From positions 1 to 7,691 of the forward strand of contig CAYXAY010000035.1 of assembly GCA_964463155.1 (NCBI GenBank): a DNA stretch of 7,691 bases. Reading direction: 5' to 3'. This document shows, in pieces, positions 1-7,545 of this stretch; within the stretch, counting starts at the first letter, position 1, and every line of letters begins with the position of its first letter. This DNA is from an uncultured archaeon (GTDB lineage Archaea > Iainarchaeota > Iainarchaeia > Iainarchaeales > CSSED10-239). The notes under the pieces are model-generated. The model worked only from the letters and a program-made list of their open reading frames with translations, was not told the origin of the DNA and searched no databases. A program made the translations under genes and the position numbers.

Positions 1-1534
1 TCATTGTATATTGGTTAGCAGAAGTTAATGCTTGGAACCTGATTAATGGATTTTGTATTCCGCTATAGGAACGAGTTGTTGTGTCAAATAATCTTCCTGG
101 ACAGGTGTGTTGGTTTTCATCAAAATAACCATAATAACAATTATTGACTGTATTATTAAAATAAAAATCGGCATTATTAGGTAACTCTGTATAATTATAC
201 AATGTGTTTTGTTCATATACTAATCCTGGATGGCTTATTGTATCATCCCACCAATTTCCGTCAGGATCCCATTGTATCCAATTATTTGGATAATGTGCTT
301 CTATCTTGTTTTCATCAACATGATAGATTGCAAAACCACTCCAATTCTGTGATGCGTTATTAAACATACAAGAATCTAAGTTTGAAGCCCCACCACCAGT
401 ATATCTATTTTCAATTATGAAAAATTCTCTTGAGGTTAGATTGCTGTTTTTTAGAATTACGACATCTGGATAATCGTTTGCGCTTCTTAGACTTATTTGC
501 TTGTTACTGTCTGTTGTTAAGATTGTTGGACTGGTCCAGCCAAAGAAATATCTGGACCAAGCATCAAGATTGATTGGTTTATTAAGACAAAAAGGACCAT
601 CTTGGAAATCCATCATTGTAAAATCTGCTAATGGGCCATTACCCGCACCTGTCGGAGTATTATAATATAAATCAGGAAGACCGAGAACATGTGCAAACTC
701 ATGTGTTGTTACTGGCATTTCAAAAGAATTTCTGTCTGAAAGATGTCCAAAAGGACCTCTGTCTGGGACTAAGGCAAAGTTGCCTAGGAATTTGCCATCT
801 ACTGAAACTGTGCTTTGTCTTAAAATTCGTGCCTGGGGCCAAACACCATATGGCGGATATCCAGCAGTACCGGTATAAATTATTACAAAACCGTCTATTC
901 TTCCATCATTGTCATTGTCATATTGACTGAAGTTGATGTGGGGATTGAAGGTGTTTATGGTGTCTATTCCGAGAGTATATGCTCTACCGCTTGTTGCTGA
1001 GTAATAAGCATAGGTGTTTGGAGCTTGTCTCCAATCATAGACATCAAAGATTATGTTTAGTTGATTGTAGGATTGCTTAGCAAAGTATCTGCTTACACTT
1101 ATTCCTTGACCGTTTAGGTAGTTTGGGCTGTTAAAGGCGTCGTTCATAAAACTTTGAGTGTAAGTGGAAGGAGCGTCGCTAAATCTTATTAACAAAACTG
1201 GTATTCTTACGGTGCCGGTTAAGGGACTAGTCCCCCAGATGTTTGCAACAGTTGTTGCTCTTGGATCGTTGTTCTTTGGAGCATTCTTGACTAAGGATTT
1301 TTTGTATTGCTCTAAAGTAGTTCCTTGCTTTCTTAACTCTATGTCGGGAGGATAGAAAACATCATTATAGACTTTACCGTCTTCAGAAACTATTAGCTTT
1401 TCTTCAACTATTGGCGGTTGCTTGATATTAAATCTTTCAAAAAGATTATCAGAAAAAACAAAATTTAAAAGAAAGATAAATGAGATGATTACTAATGAAC
1501 TTACAACTATTTTAGATAAACTAGGCTTTAGCAT
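1..1534 (-). CDS. Secreted M6-family (immune inhibitor A / InhA-like) zinc metalloprotease; 5' complete, C-terminus runs off the left window edge
   Basis: I hand-translated the minus strand from ATG 1534-1532, checking every 60-nt line. It stays open for 511 codons to the window edge, leaving nt 1 over. It has no stop in the window, which explains its absence from the ORF track. The N-terminus MLKPSLSKIVVSSLVIISFIFLLNFVFS looks like a signal peptide or anchor. HEFAH (nt 703-689) is followed by VLGLPDLY, giving the HExxHxxGLPDxY zinc-binding signature of peptidase family M6. The upstream block RIPVLLIRFSD is also typical of the M6 domain. Confidence 0.85.
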   Translation of the reverse strand, partial: MLKPSLSKIVVSSLVIISFIFLLNFVFSDNLFERFNIKQPPIVEEKLIVSEDGKVYNDVFYPPDIELRKQGTTLEQYKKSLVKNAPKNNDPRATTVANIWGTSPLTGTVRIPVLLIRFSDAPSTYTQSFMNDAFNSPNYLNGQGISVSRYFAKQSYNQLNIIFDVYDWRQAPNTYAYYSATSGRAYTLGIDTINTFNPHINFSQYDNDNDGRIDGFVIIYTGTAGYPPYGVWPQARILRQSTVSVDGKFLGNFALVPDRGPFGHLSDRNSFEMPVTTHEFAHVLGLPDLYYNTPTGAGNGPLADFTMMDFQDGPFCLNKPINLDAWSRYFFGWTSPTILTTDSNKQISLRSANDYPDVVILKNSNLTSREFFIIENRYTGGGASNLDSCMFNNASQNWSGFAIYHVDENKIEAHYPNNWIQWDPDGNWWDDTISHPGLVYEQNTLYNYTELPNNADFYFNNTVNNCYYGYFDENQHTCPGRLFDTTTRSYSGIQNPLIRFQALTSANQYTM

Positions 1535-1555
1535 TAATATATTAAGAAACAATAG

Positions 1556-1563
1556 TATTTAAA
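1556..1563 (-). promoter_or_regulatory. Candidate archaeal TATA box (TTTAAATA on minus strand) for the M6 protease gene; spacing implies a leaderless mRNA
   Basis: Plus-strand tatttaaa reads TTTAAATA on the minus strand, matching the archaeal TTTAWATA consensus. Its centre is about 25 nt upstream of ATG 1534. No SD-like sequence lies between them. Confidence 0.4.
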
Positions 1564-1791: not shown

Positions 1792-2342
1792 TTAAAGATT
1801 ATAGGTTAATACTTTTAGCAGAACCTGCTTTTGCTGGTTATCTTGCTTTGTTGCGGTTACAAAACCGCCTGTTGTTCGCTTGATTGCTGATATTACTGAT
1901 TCAACACCCATCTTTTATTACAAGATTTAATTTTAAATCGCTTCATGGCCTTTATTCTGTTATCAGATACTGTCTGATAACTCTGCGATTTTCTAAATGG
2001 TATGTGAACAATATGTTGTTGTCTTAACAATATTCTAGTTTTTGTAAAATGTCTTTACTAATCTTGCTTACAAATTTTTGTAAGGTTGTAAAGTGCGGTA
2101 GTCTCTGGATACCAATCATTCGCATAACATTAATGTCAGTTAATAGCTCTGTTAAACGACGATAAGAACATTTGTGTCGTTCTTTTAATATAAGCAAATA
2201 TACATGAACGAAGTTATTGTAAAGCTTGTTAGAATATTTAGAAAAATGAAAAGGCAATCTTACTTCACCAAAAACTCGTTTAACTTGCTTATAGAAACTA
2301 TTAAAAGATATTGGTTGTAATATATTTATCCTGAAAAATCAT
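1792..2342 (-). pseudogene. DDE transposase pseudogene (IS4/IS5-superfamily-like): N-terminal HTH part and C-terminal end present, central catalytic region deleted, at least two frameshifts
   Basis: N-terminal piece: track ORF 2024-2257 (TTG start), with the frame open upstream to 2338. It reads ISFNSFYKQVKRVFGEVRLPFHFSKYSNKLYNNFVHVYLLILKERHKCSYRRLTELLTDINVMRMIGIQRLPHFTTLQKFVSKI, which resembles N-termini of archaeal IS4/IS5-type transposases as I remember them. A possible original ATG at 2342-2340 is in another frame. C-terminal piece: QQHIVHIPFRKSQSYQTVSDNRIKAMKRFKIKSCNKR (2021->1911). After a frameshift it continues GVESVISAIKRTTGGFVTATKQDNQQKQVLLKVLTYNL* (1911->1792). This has the E-x6-K/R end of a DDE domain, and the stop is TAA at 1794-1792. 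Confidence 0.7.
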
Positions 2343-2372
2343 AATATATAGGTCGTAAGACCTATATATTAT
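2341..2372. repeat. Perfect 14-bp inverted repeat with 4-nt loop (ATAATATATAGGTC gtaa GACCTATATATTAT)
   Basis: Arms 2341-2354 and 2359-2372 are exact reverse complements. On the minus strand the hairpin is followed by GATTTTTC. It lies about 90 nt downstream of the 977-aa gene stop and abuts the possible original transposase ATG (2342-2340). Confidence 0.7.
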
Positions 2373-2464: not shown

Positions 2465-5398
2465 TTATTTTTTCTTTTTAAAGATTAGAATTAGAGCTAT
2501 TATGATTATTATTCCAAGAATTACTAAACCTGTGTTTGCTAAAGTAAAGAAAGCACTTAATGGCGATACTCCTGATTGAAGGGTTAACTTTTGATTTGTT
2601 ATTTCTTGACCTGTTGTTTTGTCTTTTATCTTTATGTTTAGAGTCGTGTCTTCCTTTAATAATGTTGGAGAAACAATCTTATAGATCTTTGTTATCTCCT
2701 CTCCTGGTAGGATGTTTAGTTCTTTGTCTCCATCAATAACATAGGTTTCGGAAAGGCCAAAGTCAACTATTGTGTTTTGTAAGATTTTTGTGTTGTTCTT
2801 TAATGTTAATGTTAGCTTGTAGGTCCTGTCTTGGGTTAATACCTTTTCTGCTTTAGAATTTATTGTTATTGCCTGTGTTTCTGGTGAAAGATTTATTGTT
2901 ATTGGATATTTGTTTAGAAGTTTGTTGTTTGAATAAAGTTCTATGTGACCTTTGTATTCTATTTTTTTTGCATTCTCTGGAATGTTTATTTCAAGTGATA
3001 TGTTTTTTGTCTCATGTGCTGAAAGAGTTGTTGATTTGGGGCTTGTCATAAAATCGCTTGGGAAGCCAGATAGTTTTATTGTGACATCTTTGTTTCTTGT
3101 AAAGCTGTTGTTTATGCTTGTTATAATTGCCACGTTGTTTGTGACTGGACTTATTAATGTTGGATAGCTTACAAGACTTATTCTTTCTGAAACAGAAATG
3201 TTACTAACTATGTTTGTGAAAGTTCTTGTGCTTGGACAGTTGTTTAACATTACTGTGTAATAGACTGCTGAAGGATTATTGAAATTTGAAAGAGTAATGT
3301 TTTTAGTGAAATTATCAAAACCGCTTAAGAAGATTATGCTTGGGTCTGTGATTAAACCACTGCCTGTTATCTCTATTCTTCCGTTCTTGCTTGTGTTATT
3401 CTTGAAGGTTGCTGATATTGTTTCTTGGCTGTTGTTTATCTCTATTGCTGTTGGGGCAATCACTTGGAAATCACAATCAGTTGGCAAAAGAGTTCCTTGG
3501 TTTGCTCTTGTTGTCAAAATACCAGAAACCGTGTCAACAAAAGTACATTGTTTGCCGTCTTCAAATCTTCCAGAAACTAACATCTCAAGACTTCCTGTTC
3601 CTGTTATCCCTATTATCATTTGGGAATTGTTGTTTGCTGGGATTGTTAGTTGCTTGTTACTTGCATTTGCTGACAAGCCGTATTTGTTTTGGAACAACAC
3701 ATCATTAACATAGAATTTTTTGTTTGAGGAATTGTAGATTGAGACTTGGTTGTTTCCAAAAGCTACTGTCTTTGAATCAACCTTTATTGCTGAACAGGAC
3801 TTGTTTGTTGGCTCAGAGATTGTCAAATCAAAATATTTTGTGTCAATGTTTGAATAGCTACAGGTTTTACCATCTGTAAATCTTCCTGAAACAGAAATTG
3901 TTCCTCTGGGGTTTTGGGTTGAGCTTACATTGTTTGTTGATAGGGTAAAATTTATTGAACCTGTTGCTCTTGAAGTAAGTGTTTGTGGAAAAGAAAGGTT
4001 GCTTATTGAAGCATAGTTTGTGTTGTCGTTGATTGAAAGGTTTGTTATTGTAAATGTTGAGTTGGAGTTGTTAAGTATAAAAAAACCATCCTCCCTTGAA
4101 TAGCTTTTTGTTGTTTCCTCTTCTTGGTTGATGTTCTTGGCATAGATTAAAATGTTTTTACAGCTTGTGGTTGCTATGCTGTCTGGATAATAATAACCGT
4201 TGTTTTCAATAGTTACCGCAAGGTTTACTTTTCTTGTACATTCTTTGTCATCATGTCCTGACCTTGTAAAGTTTCCTGTAATCTCCAATGGCAAATATTT
4301 TATTGTTGTATAATCAAAATCATCTGTTTCAAATTCTATTTCTAGTGACTCGGAATCATCTGCAGATATCTCGTCAGGCTCATTAACAATTCTTGCAGTT
4401 ATTCCTGACCGGTCATCAATTATTATGTCATCAATCTCAAAATCATAATCATCTGAATTGTTTTCGAGAGTAATTGTTTTTCTTAGACTGTAGTTGCTTG
4501 GGATTGTAAAGCTTGTGTTTCTAATAACCAAATCTGAACAGCTCGCATCATTGTCACTATCCTTTTCATCTATGTGATATTCTACTGTGTAGGTTTTTGT
4601 GCAGACTTGTGTATTTGCATATTTTGCACTTACTGTTATATCAAAGCTTGAATCATAATCATCACTTACTGAATCTGCTTCAACATACACTCTTATTGTT
4701 CTTACTGAGTTTGATGGTACTGTGCTTGGATAATCTATGTCATCAATATCAAGGTTTGAAGGATTTGTCGTATCAACATCAAGAATTGAAAGAGGATCAT
4801 TTGTTTCGTTTTCAACATATAGGTTGTAGGTTTTTGACTCGCCTTCATCTAGATAAATGTCACGCATTCCTGAAAGAAAGAAATCCGAACAATCTGTTGT
4901 GTTATCTTGAGAGTCGTTTGTTTCGGAATCGTTTGTGTCATCTATAAAATAATAATAAGGCGCGGTGTTTACTGGATAAACATATGCTTGAGAATATGTG
5001 CTGTAGACTACCCCAAAAGACTCAGCATAAATTTTTACCATGTATCCGTAATAGTTTGGATTGATGTAAAAAACATTTGGATAAACATAATCATAAGCAG
5101 AAGAATATGCGTAGTTGGTTGTGCTTGGCACAGAATAAAGATAGGCTAGTTGTCCGTTGTCTAAAATCCCATATACCTTTAGAGAAACAATTACTGGAAC
5201 ATTTGTGTAGCCGTTTGTTGCTTGTAGTCTTAGTTTTAAACTAACGTTATCCTGAAAATGACCATATTGAATGTTTAGGTATTCTGGTTGTGAATCTGTG
5301 TTTGCATAGAAATAATTTATTGCAAAGGGGGCAGCAAAGACTGCTTGAATAGATACTGCAAAGAAAAATAAAATTGTTATTAAATATTCTTTTCTCAT
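2465..5398 (-). CDS. 977-aa secreted, modular, sequon-rich cell-surface protein (S-layer/adhesin-like) with C-terminal TM-plus-basic sorting/anchor signal; putative archaeosortase substrate
   Basis: Track ORF. ATG 5398-5396 is preceded by GGAG (5410-5407) with an 8-nt spacer. The stop is TAA. Signal peptide: MRKEYLITILFFFAVSIQAVFA/AP. Residues 95-151 are Tyr-rich. Residues 153-363 are strongly acidic. Exactly 10 Cys form five regularly spaced pairs that bracket modules of about 80-100 aa. Two further Cys-free modules look like beta-sandwich (CARDB-like) domains. I hand-counted 29 N-x-S/T sequons. The C-terminus reads GVSPLSAFFTLANTGLVILGIIIIIALILIFKKKK. Confidence 0.9.
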   Translation of the reverse strand: MRKEYLITILFFFAVSIQAVFAAPFAINYFYANTDSQPEYLNIQYGHFQDNVSLKLRLQATNGYTNVPVIVSLKVYGILDNGQLAYLYSVPSTTNYAYSSAYDYVYPNVFYINPNYYGYMVKIYAESFGVVYSTYSQAYVYPVNTAPYYYFIDDTNDSETNDSQDNTTDCSDFFLSGMRDIYLDEGESKTYNLYVENETNDPLSILDVDTTNPSNLDIDDIDYPSTVPSNSVRTIRVYVEADSVSDDYDSSFDITVSAKYANTQVCTKTYTVEYHIDEKDSDNDASCSDLVIRNTSFTIPSNYSLRKTITLENNSDDYDFEIDDIIIDDRSGITARIVNEPDEISADDSESLEIEFETDDFDYTTIKYLPLEITGNFTRSGHDDKECTRKVNLAVTIENNGYYYPDSIATTSCKNILIYAKNINQEEETTKSYSREDGFFILNNSNSTFTITNLSINDNTNYASISNLSFPQTLTSRATGSINFTLSTNNVSSTQNPRGTISVSGRFTDGKTCSYSNIDTKYFDLTISEPTNKSCSAIKVDSKTVAFGNNQVSIYNSSNKKFYVNDVLFQNKYGLSANASNKQLTIPANNNSQMIIGITGTGSLEMLVSGRFEDGKQCTFVDTVSGILTTRANQGTLLPTDCDFQVIAPTAIEINNSQETISATFKNNTSKNGRIEITGSGLITDPSIIFLSGFDNFTKNITLSNFNNPSAVYYTVMLNNCPSTRTFTNIVSNISVSERISLVSYPTLISPVTNNVAIITSINNSFTRNKDVTIKLSGFPSDFMTSPKSTTLSAHETKNISLEINIPENAKKIEYKGHIELYSNNKLLNKYPITINLSPETQAITINSKAEKVLTQDRTYKLTLTLKNNTKILQNTIVDFGLSETYVIDGDKELNILPGEEITKIYKIVSPTLLKEDTTLNIKIKDKTTGQEITNQKLTLQSGVSPLSAFFTLANTGLVILGIIIIIALILIFKKKK

Positions 5399-5602: not shown

Positions 5603-5989
5603 ATGGTTGAAGACAATTCCGGAGTTTCGCAGGACATCAAGGCATTACAGTCAAGCATATTGGTGTTGTCTGAGAAAATAAAATATCTTGTGCATAATGA
5701 AAAGATACTTAGTAGAAATATACTTGTTCTTAATAAGAAAGTCGCCGCTAAAGGAGACGGCATGTCTGGAATTAATGCTGCAACCACTCAACAGTTTAAG
5801 GACTTACAAGACGAGATTAAGGAACTAAAGATAAAGATTAAGGGACTTGAATCGACTTTAGAGACCTTTTCTAAGAGATATGCAAAAGCAGAAGACCTAA
5901 AGGAAATGAAATATATCGTTGACAATATCAATCCTTTAGAATACACTACTGTTTCACAAGTAAAGAAATTGATTAAAGAGAACAAATAA
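5603..5989 (+). CDS. 128-aa hypothetical coiled-coil protein (two long heptad-like helices joined by a Gly/Ala/Thr linker); function unknown
   Basis: Track ORF with an ATG start and a TAA stop followed by oligo-T. The composition is coding-like and rich in K/E/L/I, with no hydrophobic segment. The minus-strand track ORFs 5563-5787 and 5788-5985 that overlap it are low-complexity, Phe/Ser/Ile-rich shadows. I do not recognise a family. Confidence 0.7.
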   Translation: MVEDNSGVSQDIKALQSSILVLSEKIKYLVHNEKILSRNILVLNKKVAAKGDGMSGINAATTQQFKDLQDEIKELKIKIKGLESTLETFSKRYAKAEDLKEMKYIVDNINPLEYTTVSQVKKLIKENK

Positions 5990-6593
5990 TTTTTTCTTTT
6001 ATTTCTAACCCTTGTTTTGAAAACAAATCAAACATTTCTGGTCTTAGATCAGAGGCTTGTTTTATTGTCAAATGGGTTTTGTTATTAATAAGTACTAGAT
6101 TGTAGTTTATTAACTCGTTTATTTTTTGCGGTTCTTTTTTTGCTAAACGATTATAATTTTTTATCTTTTAAAGAATTGATCTTTTAATAATTGAGTTTCT
6201 CACAAACTGGTTTTGCTTTTTTGTTTCTGAGATTAGTTCTTTTAATATCCCTCTCGTATATCCTGCAATATCGAATTTCTTGTGATCATCCATTCCTTCT
6301 AGATAGGTTGCTAAAAGTTTTTATTCTATGTATTCTACGATTTGCTTTTTAGTTTTGTGGTTTAGGCTAGCAAGTTCGTTTTTAGAATCTATGTTTTTAT
6401 ATACTTGTTTTGCAGGTTTGCGAATCTCTGACTTTACTTTGTTTAAGTTAGCATATCTTTCTTGAATCTCTTTTTCGTTCTTTAGGGCTTATATCTTTCT
6501 TATTGTAGAGGCAACTTTTCTAAAGATTTGTGTGTTTTTTTCCGGAAGATAGATCATTGGGTTTCTGTTTGTGTGTATCTTTATCTTTGGCAT
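5973..6593 (-). pseudogene. Third gene of the rps8e operon: 206-codon Lys-rich frame interrupted by three in-frame TAA codons (pseudogene, or readthrough candidate); possible C-terminal HTH
   Basis: ATG 6593-6591 lies 5 nt after the archaeosortase TGA. It is preceded by AGGTGA (6604-6599), which matches the archaeal SD. In-frame TAA codons are at 6491-6489 (codon 35), 6323-6321 (codon 91) and 6170-6168 (codon 142). There are no other stops or frameshifts before the terminal TAA at 5975-5973. Translation, verified line by line: MPKIKIHTNRNPMIYLPEKNTQIFRKVASTIRKI*ALKNEKEIQERYANLNKVKSEIRKPAKQVYKNIDSKNELASLNHKTKKQIVEYIE*KLLATYLEGMDDHKKFDIAGYTRGILKELISETKKQNQFVRNSIIKRSIL*KIKNYNRLAKKEPQKINELINYNLVLINNKTHLTIKQASDLRPEMFDLFSKQGLEIKEKIICSL*. 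The 55-codon second segment contains no ATG, GTG or TTG, so it cannot be an independent ORF. Confidence 0.6.
5990..6004 (+). terminator. Oligo-T tract (T6-C-T4-A-T3) immediately after the 128-aa gene stop
   Basis: Read directly from the sequence. This is the archaeal oligo-T termination type. Confidence 0.4.
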
Positions 6594-6598
6594 CTTTT

Positions 6599-7153
6599 TC
6601 ACCTTGTGTTTATCCTAAACCAAAAGTAATAGATTCCTATAACTATTATTACCAAAAATGTTCTAAAAAGAAAACCATGAATGAAATTTGCAAAAGAAAT
6701 ATTGCCATTAATTATTATTAGAGAAGTTATAACTATTCTTGTCAAATTGAAAAAAACAATTATTGGCACTGAAATTAAAAAGCCAATAACTCTTTTGTTT
6801 ATTGCTATTCCTGCAGAAGAAAAGATTGCAGCAGACAATAGACAAAACTCTAATATCCCAGAACACATAAAGCTAATTATTATTGGTTCTTTTAGGCTTG
6901 GAACTAGAATTATTGATATCTTTGCTATGCTGTCAAAAGAAAAGTAATTTGCTATTCCAAACAAAGACAATATTTGGCTTGTTAATAAACCATAGAAGTA
7001 ATTAATGTAATTTGCTATCTGAGTTTTACCAAAAACAAGATAAAATACTGAGAAAAAAAAAATAAACAAAAAGAGGAAAAAAAGAACCTTTTGGTATTCT
7101 CTTTTGTCCTTTATGTCTTTTTTGAATTGTTTAAAAAAAGATTTTTTTTTCAT
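6599..7153 (-). CDS. Exosortase/archaeosortase-family integral membrane protein, minimal 184-aa form (subfamily not assignable from sequence alone)
   Basis: Track ORF. It is polytopic, with about 5-6 hydrophobic segments after a basic N-terminus. Cys97 sits in FMCSG (nt 6865-6863). Asn136-x-x-Arg139 sits in FFNLTRIV (Arg at nt 6739-6737). His159 is in FIHGF, and Arg180 is near the C-terminus. These correspond to the conserved Cys and Arg positions of the family. The Cys-to-Arg spacing is 42 residues, against 41 in Haloferax volcanii ArtA (Cys173/Arg214, recalled from memory). The start ATG overlaps the rps8e TGA stop. Confidence 0.75.
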   Translation of the reverse strand: MKKKSFFKQFKKDIKDKREYQKVLFFLFLFIFFFSVFYLVFGKTQIANYINYFYGLLTSQILSLFGIANYFSFDSIAKISIILVPSLKEPIIISFMCSGILEFCLLSAAIFSSAGIAINKRVIGFLISVPIIVFFNLTRIVITSLIIINGNISFANFIHGFLFRTFLVIIVIGIYYFWFRINTR

Positions 7154-7545
7154 TTAACTAGTACACCAGTAATTTGTCCTGATTGGCCTGGTCTTGATGT
7201 CACTCTTACTTTTGCCTCTTTTCCGTCAACATCAACTTTTAGGATTGCGCCTTTAGTTATTATCTTTTGTCTAACGAAATGTTTGTTTGCTGGGTTTTCT
7301 GTAACATCAATTACTTTTGCTTTTACTGTCTTGTTGCCTTGAGAGATTAGAACTGTTTGGGCATGAGAAATCTTTACTTTTCTTGTGCCGCCTACTTTTC
7401 TTGTCTTATATCTCTTGTCCTCTTTTGAGACAGACGTCTTTGAAAACTTTCCGCCTTTCTCGCTTAATGTCTTTGTCTTTGCATTAACTGCATTGTTTAT
7501 TCCACCGGTTTTCTTTCTTCTTGAAACTCTTTTCCATTCAACCAT
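7150..7545 (-). CDS. rps8e: 30S ribosomal protein S8e
   Basis: Track ORF of 131 aa. The N-terminal MVEWKRVSRRKKTGG matches the S8e signature (W-x-x-x-S-R-R-K-x-T-GG). The protein is basic and Lys/Arg-rich, and its C-terminal part resembles S8e (ITKGAILKVDVDGKEAKVRVTSRPGQSGQITGVLV). Length is typical of archaeal S8e. The stop is TGA at 7152-7150. Confidence 0.9.
   Translation of the reverse strand: MVEWKRVSRRKKTGGINNAVNAKTKTLSEKGGKFSKTSVSKEDKRYKTRKVGGTRKVKISHAQTVLISQGNKTVKAKVIDVTENPANKHFVRQKIITKGAILKVDVDGKEAKVRVTSRPGQSGQITGVLVK

What the first reader, a model, noticed from the sequence alone, without database searches (positions are those of the whole stretch)
2468..2578. C-terminal tripartite sorting signal lacking the named PGF/PEF/VPXXXP motifs: candidate substrate of the nearby mini-archaeosortase
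The 977-aa protein ends KLTLQSGVSPLSAFFTLANTGLVILGIIIIIALILIFKKKK. That is a short Gly/Ser/Pro motif region, a hydrophobic helix of about 22 residues, and a KKKK tail at the extreme C-terminus. This is the architecture recognised by exosortases and archaeosortases, and by sortases. None of the archaeal motifs I know (PGF-CTERM, PEF-CTERM, VPXXXP-CTERM) is present; the closest string is SPLSAFF. An archaeosortase-family gene lies 1.2 kb away on the same strand. The combination of a Sec signal peptide, a body with 29 sequons and a C-terminal signal parallels the Haloferax S-layer glycoprotein/ArtA paradigm. Here the motif is different and the enzyme is much smaller, so this may be an undescribed enzyme/signal pairing.
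Basis: partly seen in the sequence, partly recalled or inferred. Interest (0 to 1): 0.72.

Follow-up and report, generated by a model that had tools for sequence, protein, structure and literature searches.

The report
Candidate archaeosortase signal on surface protein
A large surface protein of a tiny DPANN archaeon ends in a conserved "TGF/SAF" motif, a membrane helix and a lysine tail, and a small archaeosortase gene always lies nearby, so this is probably a one-enzyme, one-target version of the known archaeal lipid-anchoring system, though that is unproven.

Summary
Window 2465-5398 (- strand) encodes a 977-aa secreted protein built from a string of beta-sandwich domains. It ends ...SPLSAFFTLANTG-LVILGIIIIIALILIF-KKKK. 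The 184-aa gene 1201 bp upstream on the same strand passes the exosortase/archaeosortase signature model and has invariant Cys97, Arg139 and His159.

The lineage is Iainarchaeota/Diapherotrites (DPANN). In all 22 related contigs with enough flank, the order S8e, archaeosortase, coiled-coil gene, big protein is kept. The sequence just before the membrane helix is a near-invariant [ST]-[GA]-F-[FL]-[ST]-[LF]. The family consensus is TGF, one residue from PGF. No curated CTERM model reaches its cut-off.

Three points weaken the reading:
- The tail was found only in this one orthologous family. The neighbouring M6 peptidase family lacks it.
- The whole gene block is syntenic, so adjacency is not specific evidence.
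- Deep-branching orthologues carry 55-95 more residues after the helix, with their own conserved end motif. This fits a permanent membrane anchor.

Small DPANN archaeosortases are already curated (pacearchaeosortase).

Verdict: a plausible dedicated one-to-one archaeosortase/substrate pair (about 0.5) and an uncatalogued variant of a known kind, of moderate interest. It needs whole-genome profiling and C-terminal proteomics.

The parts
2465..5398 (-). Gene for the 977-aa secreted surface protein, a candidate S-layer-like glycoprotein. It has a Sec signal, about eight beta-sandwich domains, a juxtamembrane motif, a transmembrane helix and a KKKK tail.
   Evidence: ORF. Identical to P0016. 19 homologues at 21-66% identity. 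AF2 mean pLDDT 77, all-beta with a final helix at 956-975. Foldseek matches only generic arrays of Ig/MG/ASH domains. 29 sequons.
5333..5398 (-). Signal peptide, residues 1-22 (MRKEYLITILFFFAVSIQAVFA). Cleavage after VFA is inferred.
   Evidence: Read from the sequence. Orthologues keep the same n/h/c pattern, for example VYA|DPF and VSA|VPF. AF2 helix 3-17 with low pLDDT.
2528..2566 (-). Signature-motif region, residues 945-957 (SPLSAFFTLANTG). The core [ST]-[GA]-F-[FL]-[ST]-[LF] is S948-L953 at 2540-2557. This is the proposed archaeosortase recognition and cleavage site.
   Evidence: Residue classes in 25 non-redundant orthologues: T15/S10, G18/A7, F24/L1, F15/L10, T13/S8, L20/F5. Low-confidence linker between the last beta strand (ends at 940) and the helix. 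No CTERM model above cut-off.
2480..2527 (-). Hydrophobic transmembrane segment, residues 958-973 (LVILGIIIIIALILIF).
   Evidence: Mean hydropathy 3.25 over 18 residues. AF2 helix 956-975.
2468..2479 (-). Basic cluster KKKK at the extreme C-terminus, followed by stop TAA at 2465-2467.
   Evidence: Close orthologues end in RKK, RRR, KKR or RKR.
6599..7153 (-). 184-aa exosortase/archaeosortase family protein, the candidate sorting enzyme. Cys97 = 6863-6865, Arg139 = 6737-6739, His159 = 6677-6679.
   Evidence: TIGR04178 34.2 bits, cut-off 23. C97, R139 and H159 invariant in 15 homologues. AF2 pLDDT 83. Four clear hydrophobic spans with basic N-terminus, NKR loop and C-terminus. Below cut-off for ArtA, ArtB, ArtD, pacearchaeosortase and heimdallarchaeosortase.
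7150..7545 (-). Ribosomal protein S8e gene. Its stop codon overlaps the archaeosortase start (ATGA), so the two are probably co-transcribed.
   Evidence: Pfam Ribosomal_S8e E 7e-21. Overlap shown. S8e lies directly upstream of the archaeosortase in all related loci.
5603..5989 (+). Conserved 128-aa coiled-coil gene, head-to-head with the surface-protein gene. It is a constant member of the block and its function is unknown.
   Evidence: Present in every related contig at 60-86% identity. No significant family or PDB match.
6003..6593 (-). Remnant of the variable gene between the archaeosortase and the coiled-coil gene. One reading frame is kept but there are three in-frame TAA codons. Probably not part of the system.
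   Evidence: tblastn E 3e-47 to L001:10566-11162. Stops at codons 35, 91 and 142. Absent in L015, L017, L020 and L106.

Best explanation
The 977-aa protein is the main surface (S-layer-like) glycoprotein of an Iainarchaeota/Diapherotrites archaeon, and its C-terminus is a dedicated sorting signal for the 184-aa archaeosortase encoded 1.2 kb upstream. The proposed sequence of events is as follows.
1. Sec export, with removal of the N-terminal signal peptide.
2. N-glycosylation of the chain of beta-sandwich domains.
3. Transient anchoring in the membrane by the C-terminal helix, with the KKKK tail in the cytoplasm.
4. Recognition by the membrane-embedded archaeosortase of the [ST]-[GA]-F-[FL]-[ST]-[LF] stretch that abuts the outer end of the helix. 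The enzyme cuts there with its Cys97/Arg139/His159 site and, by analogy with Haloferax ArtA, moves the new C-terminus onto a membrane lipid.

Shown here: the tail architecture, the motif conservation, the enzyme's family membership and intact triad, and the constant gene proximity. Inferred: cleavage, the lipid attachment, the S-layer role and the enzyme's topology.
For: 1. The enzyme is real and intact. TIGR04178 scores 34.2 bits against a cut-off of 23 and is matched by all 15 homologues. Cys97, Arg139 and His159 are invariant. Hydropathy and charge distribution place all three near the outer leaflet (inference).
2. The tail meets attributes 1 and 3-6 of Haft's published list for tripartite sorting signals. 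It sits at the extreme C-terminus in this clade. Six motif positions are conserved by class, each at 84-100% in 25 non-redundant orthologues. It has a helix, a basic cluster and an N-terminal signal peptide.
3. The motif abuts the helix without a spacer. The same paper says this holds for PGF-CTERM, PEP-CTERM and GlyGly-CTERM, which deeply membrane-embedded enzymes cleave. The majority form TGF/SGF differs from PGF only at the first residue.
4. The motif persists while the rest of the protein drifts to 21-30% identity: TALISLGN in P0035 and TGFLTF in L005.
5. The one-to-one criterion is met. In all 22 contigs where both positions can be seen, the big gene lies 590-3233 bp downstream of the archaeosortase on the same strand, with no exception. 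The gene between them varies or is missing.
6. AF2 places the motif in a low-confidence linker between the last beta-sandwich and the helix, so it should be accessible.
7. Other proteins in these loci that end in a helix and a basic tail lack the motif: the L001 498-aa beta-helix protein and the L007 193-aa protein. The motif is therefore not a generic feature of membrane anchors in this lineage.
Against: 1. The tail was found only in one orthologous family. A profile search of 1.84 billion representatives returned only orthologues, a truncated orthologue and one junk repeat. A local HMM search of 4796 ORFs from 104 loci gave at least 33 bits for orthologues and 12 bits for the next best hit. 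Attributes 2 and 7 are therefore unmet.
2. Adjacency is confounded. The helicase, ERCC4, S8e, archaeosortase, coiled-coil and big-protein genes form one conserved block. The two genes of interest are separated by a gene on the opposite strand, so they are not one operon.
3. In seven deep-branching orthologues, including Ca. Forterrea, the helix is followed by 55-95 charged residues. These end in a conserved K-Q-[IV]-T-L-x-E-L-D-like motif. That suggests a functional cytoplasmic tail and a lasting type I anchor.
4. The motif 7-mer is above average in conservation (0.67 against a protein mean of 0.53) but is not the most conserved stretch.
5. There is no experimental data for any member, and no whole proteome of the lineage could be scanned.
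Confidence: 0.5

Rival explanations
1. The tail is a permanent type I membrane anchor. The C-terminal helix stays in the membrane and holds the surface protein to the cell, as in Sulfolobus SlaB-type anchoring. The [ST]-G-F-F-[ST]-L stretch is then a conserved juxtamembrane or helix-start element of this one family. The archaeosortase acts on other proteins, not yet identified, encoded elsewhere in the genome.
For: - Deep-branching orthologues have a 55-95 residue cytoplasmic extension with a conserved terminal motif, which makes sense only if the C-terminal part has a function.
- The tail is unique to one family.
- Neighbourhood conservation is explained by block synteny with housekeeping genes.
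- The motif is not the most conserved part of the protein.
- The FEMS review notes that some archaeal S-layer proteins are anchored by a transmembrane segment where no archaeosortase exists.
Against: - It leaves a catalytically intact archaeosortase, conserved across the phylum, without any candidate substrate.
- A G-F motif abutting the helix is what ArtA substrates carry, and other helix-anchored proteins of the same loci lack it.
- ArtA is known to process a tripartite signal that is not C-terminal. This is HVO_0405, cited in PMC6098224. So long extensions do not exclude cleavage.
Confidence: 0.33
2. Mixed history. The protein is cleaved at an internal site in the long-tailed lineages, giving a lipid-anchored ectodomain and a separate membrane and cytoplasmic fragment that has its own function. 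The window's clade has lost the extension and kept a classical C-terminal signal.
For: - The motif, helix and basic cluster are kept in both forms.
- The archaeosortase triad is kept in both groups.
- The terminal motif is conserved in the long form.
- There is a precedent for ArtA cutting a non-terminal signal and yielding two detectable fragments.
Against: There is no direct evidence. It needs two functional products from one gene. It is indistinguishable from the main explanation for the window's own protein.
Confidence: 0.12
3. The pairing is coincidental and the tail is a chance feature of no special significance.
For: A C-terminal helix with lysines is common, and AT-rich genomes are rich in Ile, Leu, Phe and Lys.
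Against: Six motif positions are conserved by class across orthologues down to 21-30% identity. There are 22 of 22 co-occurrences.
Confidence: 0.05

Closest known systems
[quoted passage not shown]
   Same: - A Sec-exported, N-glycosylated surface protein made of Ig-like domains.
- A tripartite tail whose x-G-F motif abuts the helix and is followed by a basic cluster.
- A polytopic membrane enzyme of the exosortase/archaeosortase family with conserved Cys, Arg and His.
   Different: - No Pro in the motif (T/S-G/A-F).
- The tail and the enzyme both fail the PGF-CTERM and ArtA models.
- The enzyme has 184 aa and four clear hydrophobic spans, against about 300 aa for ArtA (figure from my own knowledge).
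- Lys rather than Arg in the basic cluster.
- Apparently one substrate per genome, encoded nearby.
- Some orthologues have long extensions after the helix.
Pacearchaeosortase (NCBIfam NF033505) and archaeosortase D (TIGR04175): small archaeosortases
   Same: Short enzymes (models of 167 and 150 positions) of the same superfamily. Pacearchaeosortase also comes from DPANN archaea. Weak matches extend over almost the full length.
   Different: Scores are far below the cut-offs. ArtD scores 13.8 bits for the window protein against a cut-off of 125, with a best E of 3e-4 among relatives. Pacearchaeosortase has a best E of 0.0015 against a cut-off of 80 bits. The Iainarchaeota family is therefore a separate, unnamed subfamily. 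I could not find their cognate signals in the held literature.
Dedicated one-to-one sorting systems, for example JDVT-CTERM with its myxosortase-like protease MrtJ (Haft 2023 bioRxiv)
   Same: One target per proteome. Enzyme and target genes are regularly near each other. The targets are homologous along their full length, not only in the signal.
   Different: That enzyme is an Rce1-like glutamic protease and the signal has an invariant Cys. The genes are directly adjacent in 16 of 17 cases. Here 1-3 genes intervene, including one on the opposite strand.
Surface proteins anchored by a transmembrane segment without sortase-type processing, for example Sulfolobus SlaB
   Same: A C-terminal helix holds a large secreted beta-rich protein at the membrane.
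   Different: Those organisms lack an archaeosortase. Here a conserved archaeosortase and a G-F motif are present.

Membership tests
Exosortase/archaeosortase superfamily (the 184-aa protein) | Match to the signature model TIGR04178 above its curated cut-off | tested here: met
   34.2 bits against a cut-off of 23, covering residues 92-182. All 15 family members match, best E 6.5e-13.
Exosortase/archaeosortase superfamily (the 184-aa protein) | Conserved Cys, Arg and His putative catalytic residues in a polytopic membrane protein | tested here: met
   C97, R139 and H159 are invariant in 15 sequences and kept in L013, L016 and L104. Four hydrophobic spans. AF2 helices 17-43, 100-112, 118-148 and 152-183. 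Spatial clustering of the three residues was not checked because no coordinates were available.
Named archaeosortase subfamilies (ArtA, ArtB, ArtD, pacearchaeosortase, heimdallarchaeosortase) | Score at or above the subfamily model's curated cut-off | tested here: not met
   For the window protein, ArtD scores 13.8 (cut-off 125) and pacearchaeosortase 9.2 (cut-off 80). The best E-values among 15 relatives are 3e-4, 1.5e-3, 1e-4 (ArtA), 1.5e-7 (ArtB) and 6e-3 (heimdallarchaeosortase). These matches are to 1-12 members and are weak.
Tripartite C-terminal sorting signal (attributes of Haft 2023) | [quoted passage not shown] | tested here: inconclusive
   Met in the window protein and its close relatives, where the tail ends 3-4 residues after the helix. 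Not met in seven deep-branching orthologues, which have 55-95 further residues.
Tripartite C-terminal sorting signal (attributes of Haft 2023) | [quoted passage not shown] | tested here: not met
   Only the orthologous family carries it, both in 1.84 billion representatives and in 4796 ORFs of 104 loci. M6 peptidase orthologues lack it. Caveats: no complete proteome could be scanned, and the global profile search also returned none of the seven long-tailed orthologues other than P0034, which was in the query alignment. Their clusters may be represented by P0034, so sensitivity for diverged tails is uncertain.
Tripartite C-terminal sorting signal (attributes of Haft 2023) | [quoted passage not shown] | tested here: met
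   [ST] 25/25, [GA] 25/25, F 24/25, [FL] 25/25, [ST] 21/25 and [LF] 25/25. Only F is invariant as a single residue.
Tripartite C-terminal sorting signal (attributes of Haft 2023) | 4) Hydrophobic helix, 5) basic cluster, 6) N-terminal signal peptide | tested here: met
   Helix 958-973, KKKK and signal peptide 1-22. The basic cluster is Lys-rich rather than Arg-rich.
Tripartite C-terminal sorting signal (attributes of Haft 2023) | [quoted passage not shown] | tested here: met
   22 of 22 informative contigs, same strand, 590-3233 bp apart. Weakened because the whole block, including S8e, is syntenic.
PGF-CTERM / PEF-CTERM / VPXXXP-CTERM / Loki-CTERM / Heimdall-CTERM / LPXTG signals | Score at or above the curated cut-off of the signal's HMM | tested here: not met
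   For the window tail, LPXTG_anchor scores 15.8 (cut-off 15.9), Loki-CTERM 13.6 (cut-off 19.9) and Heimdall-CTERM 8.6 (cut-off 24). Across 23 tails the best E-values are 0.0053 (Loki-CTERM), 0.018 (Heimdall-CTERM) and 0.031 (PEF-CTERM), and the matches shown cover the helix and basic tail only.
Archaeosortase substrate (functional definition) | Enzyme-dependent removal of the C-terminal helix and lipid attachment | not testable with these tools
   This needs proteomics or genetics, and no cultured member is known to me.

The most novel reading that the evidence does not exclude
Across the DPANN phylum Iainarchaeota, a minimal archaeosortase of about 184 aa, co-transcribed with ribosomal protein S8e, serves a single client: the cell's main Ig-domain surface protein. 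It acts through an uncatalogued 'TGF-CTERM' signal. In the deep-branching members the signal is internal. Cleavage there would split a transmembrane protein into a lipid-anchored ectodomain and a separate membrane and cytoplasmic fragment that carries a conserved K-Q-I-T-L-x-E-L-D end motif. This would be a natural two-product archaeosortase substrate.
Probability: 0.2. Interest if true: 0.6.

Novelty: new variant of a known kind. Interest (0 to 1): 0.42.

Why it matters
Almost nothing is known about how DPANN archaea build their cell envelope, which is their interface with host cells. If the pairing is real, three things follow.

- It would extend archaeosortase-type lipid anchoring to the main surface protein of a whole DPANN phylum.
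- It would define a new signal model (TGF-type) and a new enzyme subfamily for genome annotation.
- It would offer a very small archaeosortase of 184 aa with a single client. That is an attractive minimal system for structural and mechanistic work on a family that has no solved structure.

The long-tailed orthologues would also give a natural test of whether these enzymes cut internal signals. If the pairing is wrong, the finding is an ordinary membrane-anchored surface protein next to an orphan archaeosortase.

Tried and rejected
- Exact look-up of the window's two proteins in the contig index found nothing. Relatives were used instead.
- A word-indexed search with the 23-tail alignment was wasted. 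Low-complexity helix words swamped the 8000 candidates, and not even the orthologues came back.
- I considered a degenerate DNA pattern for the 6-residue motif and dropped it. About 10^4 chance matches would be expected in the metagenome collection.
- The exhaustive profile search of 1.84 billion representatives found only orthologues. Apart from P0034, which was in the query, it returned no long-tailed orthologue. I therefore do not treat it as proof that the tail is unique.
- The PDB sequence search and Foldseek search with the archaeosortase model found nothing, so no solved relative is available. Foldseek with the 977-aa model gave only generic multi-Ig arrays, such as hydin-like ciliary proteins and alpha-2-macroglobulins. 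I do not read these as homology.
- The sigma-70 promoter scan is irrelevant for archaea and was not above background.
- The literature search found no paper on archaeosortases in Diapherotrites/Iainarchaeota or on pacearchaeosortase. Haft 2012 is not held in the library.
- I rejected membership of the tail in PGF-CTERM, because the models fail.
- I rejected the idea that the M6 peptidase shares the signal.
Full report
**Observation**

The window is AT-rich, about 30% G+C. It carries these genes on the - strand:
- An M6-like peptidase ORF that runs off the left end (2..1558; Pfam Peptidase_M6 23.2 bits against a cut-off of 22).
- A 77-aa DUF772 transposase fragment (2024..2257).
- A 977-aa ORF (2465..5398).
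- A 184-aa ORF (6599..7153).
- Ribosomal protein S8e (7150..7545).

A 128-aa coiled-coil gene lies on the + strand (5603..5989).

The 977-aa protein ends KLTLQSGVSPLSAFFTLANTG-LVILGIIIIIALILIF-KKKK. The finding's span 2468-2578 is residues 941-977. The protein has an N-terminal signal peptide. It has 29 sequons, against 19.5 +/- 3.8 expected from shuffling, and 13 of 1000 shuffles reach 29.

The 184-aa protein lies 1201 bp upstream on the same strand. It scores 34.2 bits on the exosortase/archaeosortase signature TIGR04178, cut-off 23.

**Known classes**

No curated C-terminal sorting model reaches its cut-off on this tail or on 22 orthologous tails. The nearest are LPXTG_anchor and Loki-CTERM, matched over the helix and basic cluster only.

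The enzyme fails every named subfamily model. For the window protein, ArtD scores 13.8 bits (cut-off 125) and pacearchaeosortase 9.2 bits (cut-off 80). A few relatives give weak hits to ArtA, ArtB, XrtG and XrtH.

NCBIfam already holds small archaeosortase models. One of them, pacearchaeosortase, comes from DPANN. A small enzyme is therefore not new in itself.

**Lineage and context**

A scan of one genome per species with the enzyme alignment A1 gave 17 loci. All are from uncultured archaea labelled Diapherotrites, Iainarchaeum or 'ainarchaeum', and they include the complete genome of Ca. Forterrea multitransposorum.

The enzyme family has invariant Cys97, Arg139 and His159. Hydropathy and charge suggest four membrane spans, with both ends and the NKR loop inside the cell. 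This would place the three residues near the outer leaflet (inference). The AF2 model is confident (pLDDT 83), but it has no solved structural relative.

The gene order is S8e, archaeosortase, an optional variable gene, the coiled-coil gene on the opposite strand, then the big protein. This order holds in every one of 22 contigs where it can be judged. The distance from the archaeosortase to the big gene is 590-3233 bp.

In the window the variable gene is present only as a remnant with three in-frame TAA codons.

**The tail in orthologues**

All orthologues, from 66% down to about 21% identity, keep the same design. In 25 sequences non-redundant at 80%, the six positions before the helix are:

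| Position | Residues |
|---|---|
| 948 | T15 / S10 |
| 949 | G18 / A7 |
| 950 | F24 / L1 |
| 951 | F15 / L10 |
| 952 | T13 / S8 / other 4 |
| 953 | L20 / F5 |

The family signature is (L/I)-T-G-F-F-T-L, one residue away from P-G-F. The window's S-A-F is a minority form.

The motif is above average in conservation (0.67 against a protein mean of 0.53), but several N-terminal stretches are more conserved.

AF2 models the protein as about eight beta-sandwich domains, with the last strand ending at residue 940. A low-confidence linker at 945-956 holds the motif, and a helix follows at 956-975. Foldseek matches only generic arrays of Ig-like domains. This is compatible with an S-layer protein or an adhesin, but it does not identify either.

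**Is the tail shared by unrelated proteins?**

This is the classical test, and it came out negative within the limits of the tools.
- A profile of the tail searched against 1.84 billion representative proteins returned only orthologues, a truncated orthologue and one junk repeat.
- A local HMM search of 4796 ORFs from all 104 fetched loci gave at least 33 bits for the orthologues and 12 bits for the next hit.
- Five full-length orthologues of the neighbouring M6 peptidase end without any helix.
- Other proteins in these loci that end in a helix and a basic tail lack the motif.

The global search returned no long-tailed orthologue other than P0034, which was in the query alignment. No complete proteome could be scanned either. 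Uniqueness is therefore likely but not proven.

**A complication**

Seven deep-branching orthologues (L005, L012/L014 Forterrea-type, L019-L022) have 55-95 charged residues after the helix. These end in a conserved K-Q-[IV]-T-L-x-E-L-D-like motif. In those lineages the signal is internal and the cytoplasmic end appears to be under selection. This fits a lasting type I anchor.

It does not exclude cleavage. The FEMS review reports ArtA-dependent processing of a Haloferax substrate whose tripartite signal is not C-terminal, with both fragments detected.

**Weighing the explanations**

Haft's published attributes allow one exception. In a dedicated one-to-one system, regular proximity of enzyme and target can replace multiple occurrence and unrelated carriers. 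On that rule the pair qualifies:
- The motif, helix, basic cluster and signal peptide are all present.
- The motif abuts the helix, as in signals cut by membrane-embedded enzymes.
- Enzyme and target are near each other in 22 of 22 contigs.

An intact archaeosortase conserved across a phylum must have a substrate, and this protein is the only candidate seen.

Three points count against the pairing:
- Proximity is confounded by synteny of the whole block, which includes housekeeping genes.
- The two genes are not in one operon.
- The long-tailed forms look like true transmembrane proteins.

I put the dedicated-substrate reading at about 0.5 and the permanent-anchor reading at about 0.33. A two-product variant gets about 0.12, and coincidence about 0.05.

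**Novelty**

The kind of system is known: an exosortase/archaeosortase with a tripartite signal, in the dedicated one-to-one form. The specific enzyme subfamily and the T/S-G/A-F signal are not covered by current models. I also found no paper on them in the library. I rate this a new variant of a known kind, resting on in-silico evidence only, and of moderate interest.

Noticed in passing
window 6003-6593 (- strand): This is the orthologue of the ~190-aa gene that lies between the archaeosortase and the coiled-coil gene in relatives. It is 48% identical to L001:10566-11162. It is kept in one frame without indels but has three in-frame TAA codons (codons 35, 91 and 142). Orthologues have Q, S and S at those positions. 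It is probably a young pseudogene, and some relatives lack the gene altogether.
   Followed up: partly
L005, L012, L014, L019, L020, L021, L022 (C-terminal ~100 residues of the big protein): Deep-branching orthologues carry a 55-95 residue charged extension after the transmembrane helix. It ends in a conserved K-Q-[IV]-T-L-x-E-L-D-like motif. This may be a docking site for a cytoplasmic partner, and none has been identified.
   Followed up: partly
window 5603-5989 (+ strand): A 128-aa coiled-coil protein is transcribed head-to-head with the surface-protein gene in all related contigs. It is 60-86% identical across them, as conserved as S8e. It has no Pfam, NCBIfam or PDB match.
   Followed up: partly
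window 2024-2257 (- strand): A 77-aa fragment of a DUF772/IS5-type transposase N-terminal domain (Pfam E 4e-4) lies between the surface-protein gene and the M6 peptidase gene. A relative of this lineage is named 'multitransposorum'.
   Followed up: no
window 2341-2372: A perfect 14-bp inverted repeat with a 4-nt loop (ATAATATATAGGTC..GACCTATATATTAT) lies about 95 bp downstream of the surface-protein stop codon. It could be a terminator or a mobile-element end.
   Followed up: no
window 2-1558 (- strand); L015:5578-7106; L023-L036: An M6-like (immune inhibitor A type) secreted metallopeptidase also lies directly downstream of the big gene in L015. Full-length orthologues are 780-1044 aa and have no C-terminal helix. 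This part of the window is at about 40% G+C, against about 30% elsewhere.
   Followed up: partly
L001:16559-20555, L002:14771-20558, L106:9014-9475: In relatives, the genes downstream of the big protein encode large proteins with class III (type IV pilin-like) signal peptides (MNKKGQ...) and with CHB_HEX_C_1, Fn3_assoc or Glug domains. The neighbourhood is therefore a cell-surface gene cluster.
   Followed up: no
window 7150-7153: The S8e stop codon and the archaeosortase start codon overlap (ATGA). This suggests translational coupling of a membrane protease gene to a ribosomal protein gene. The adjacency holds in all related loci.
   Followed up: yes
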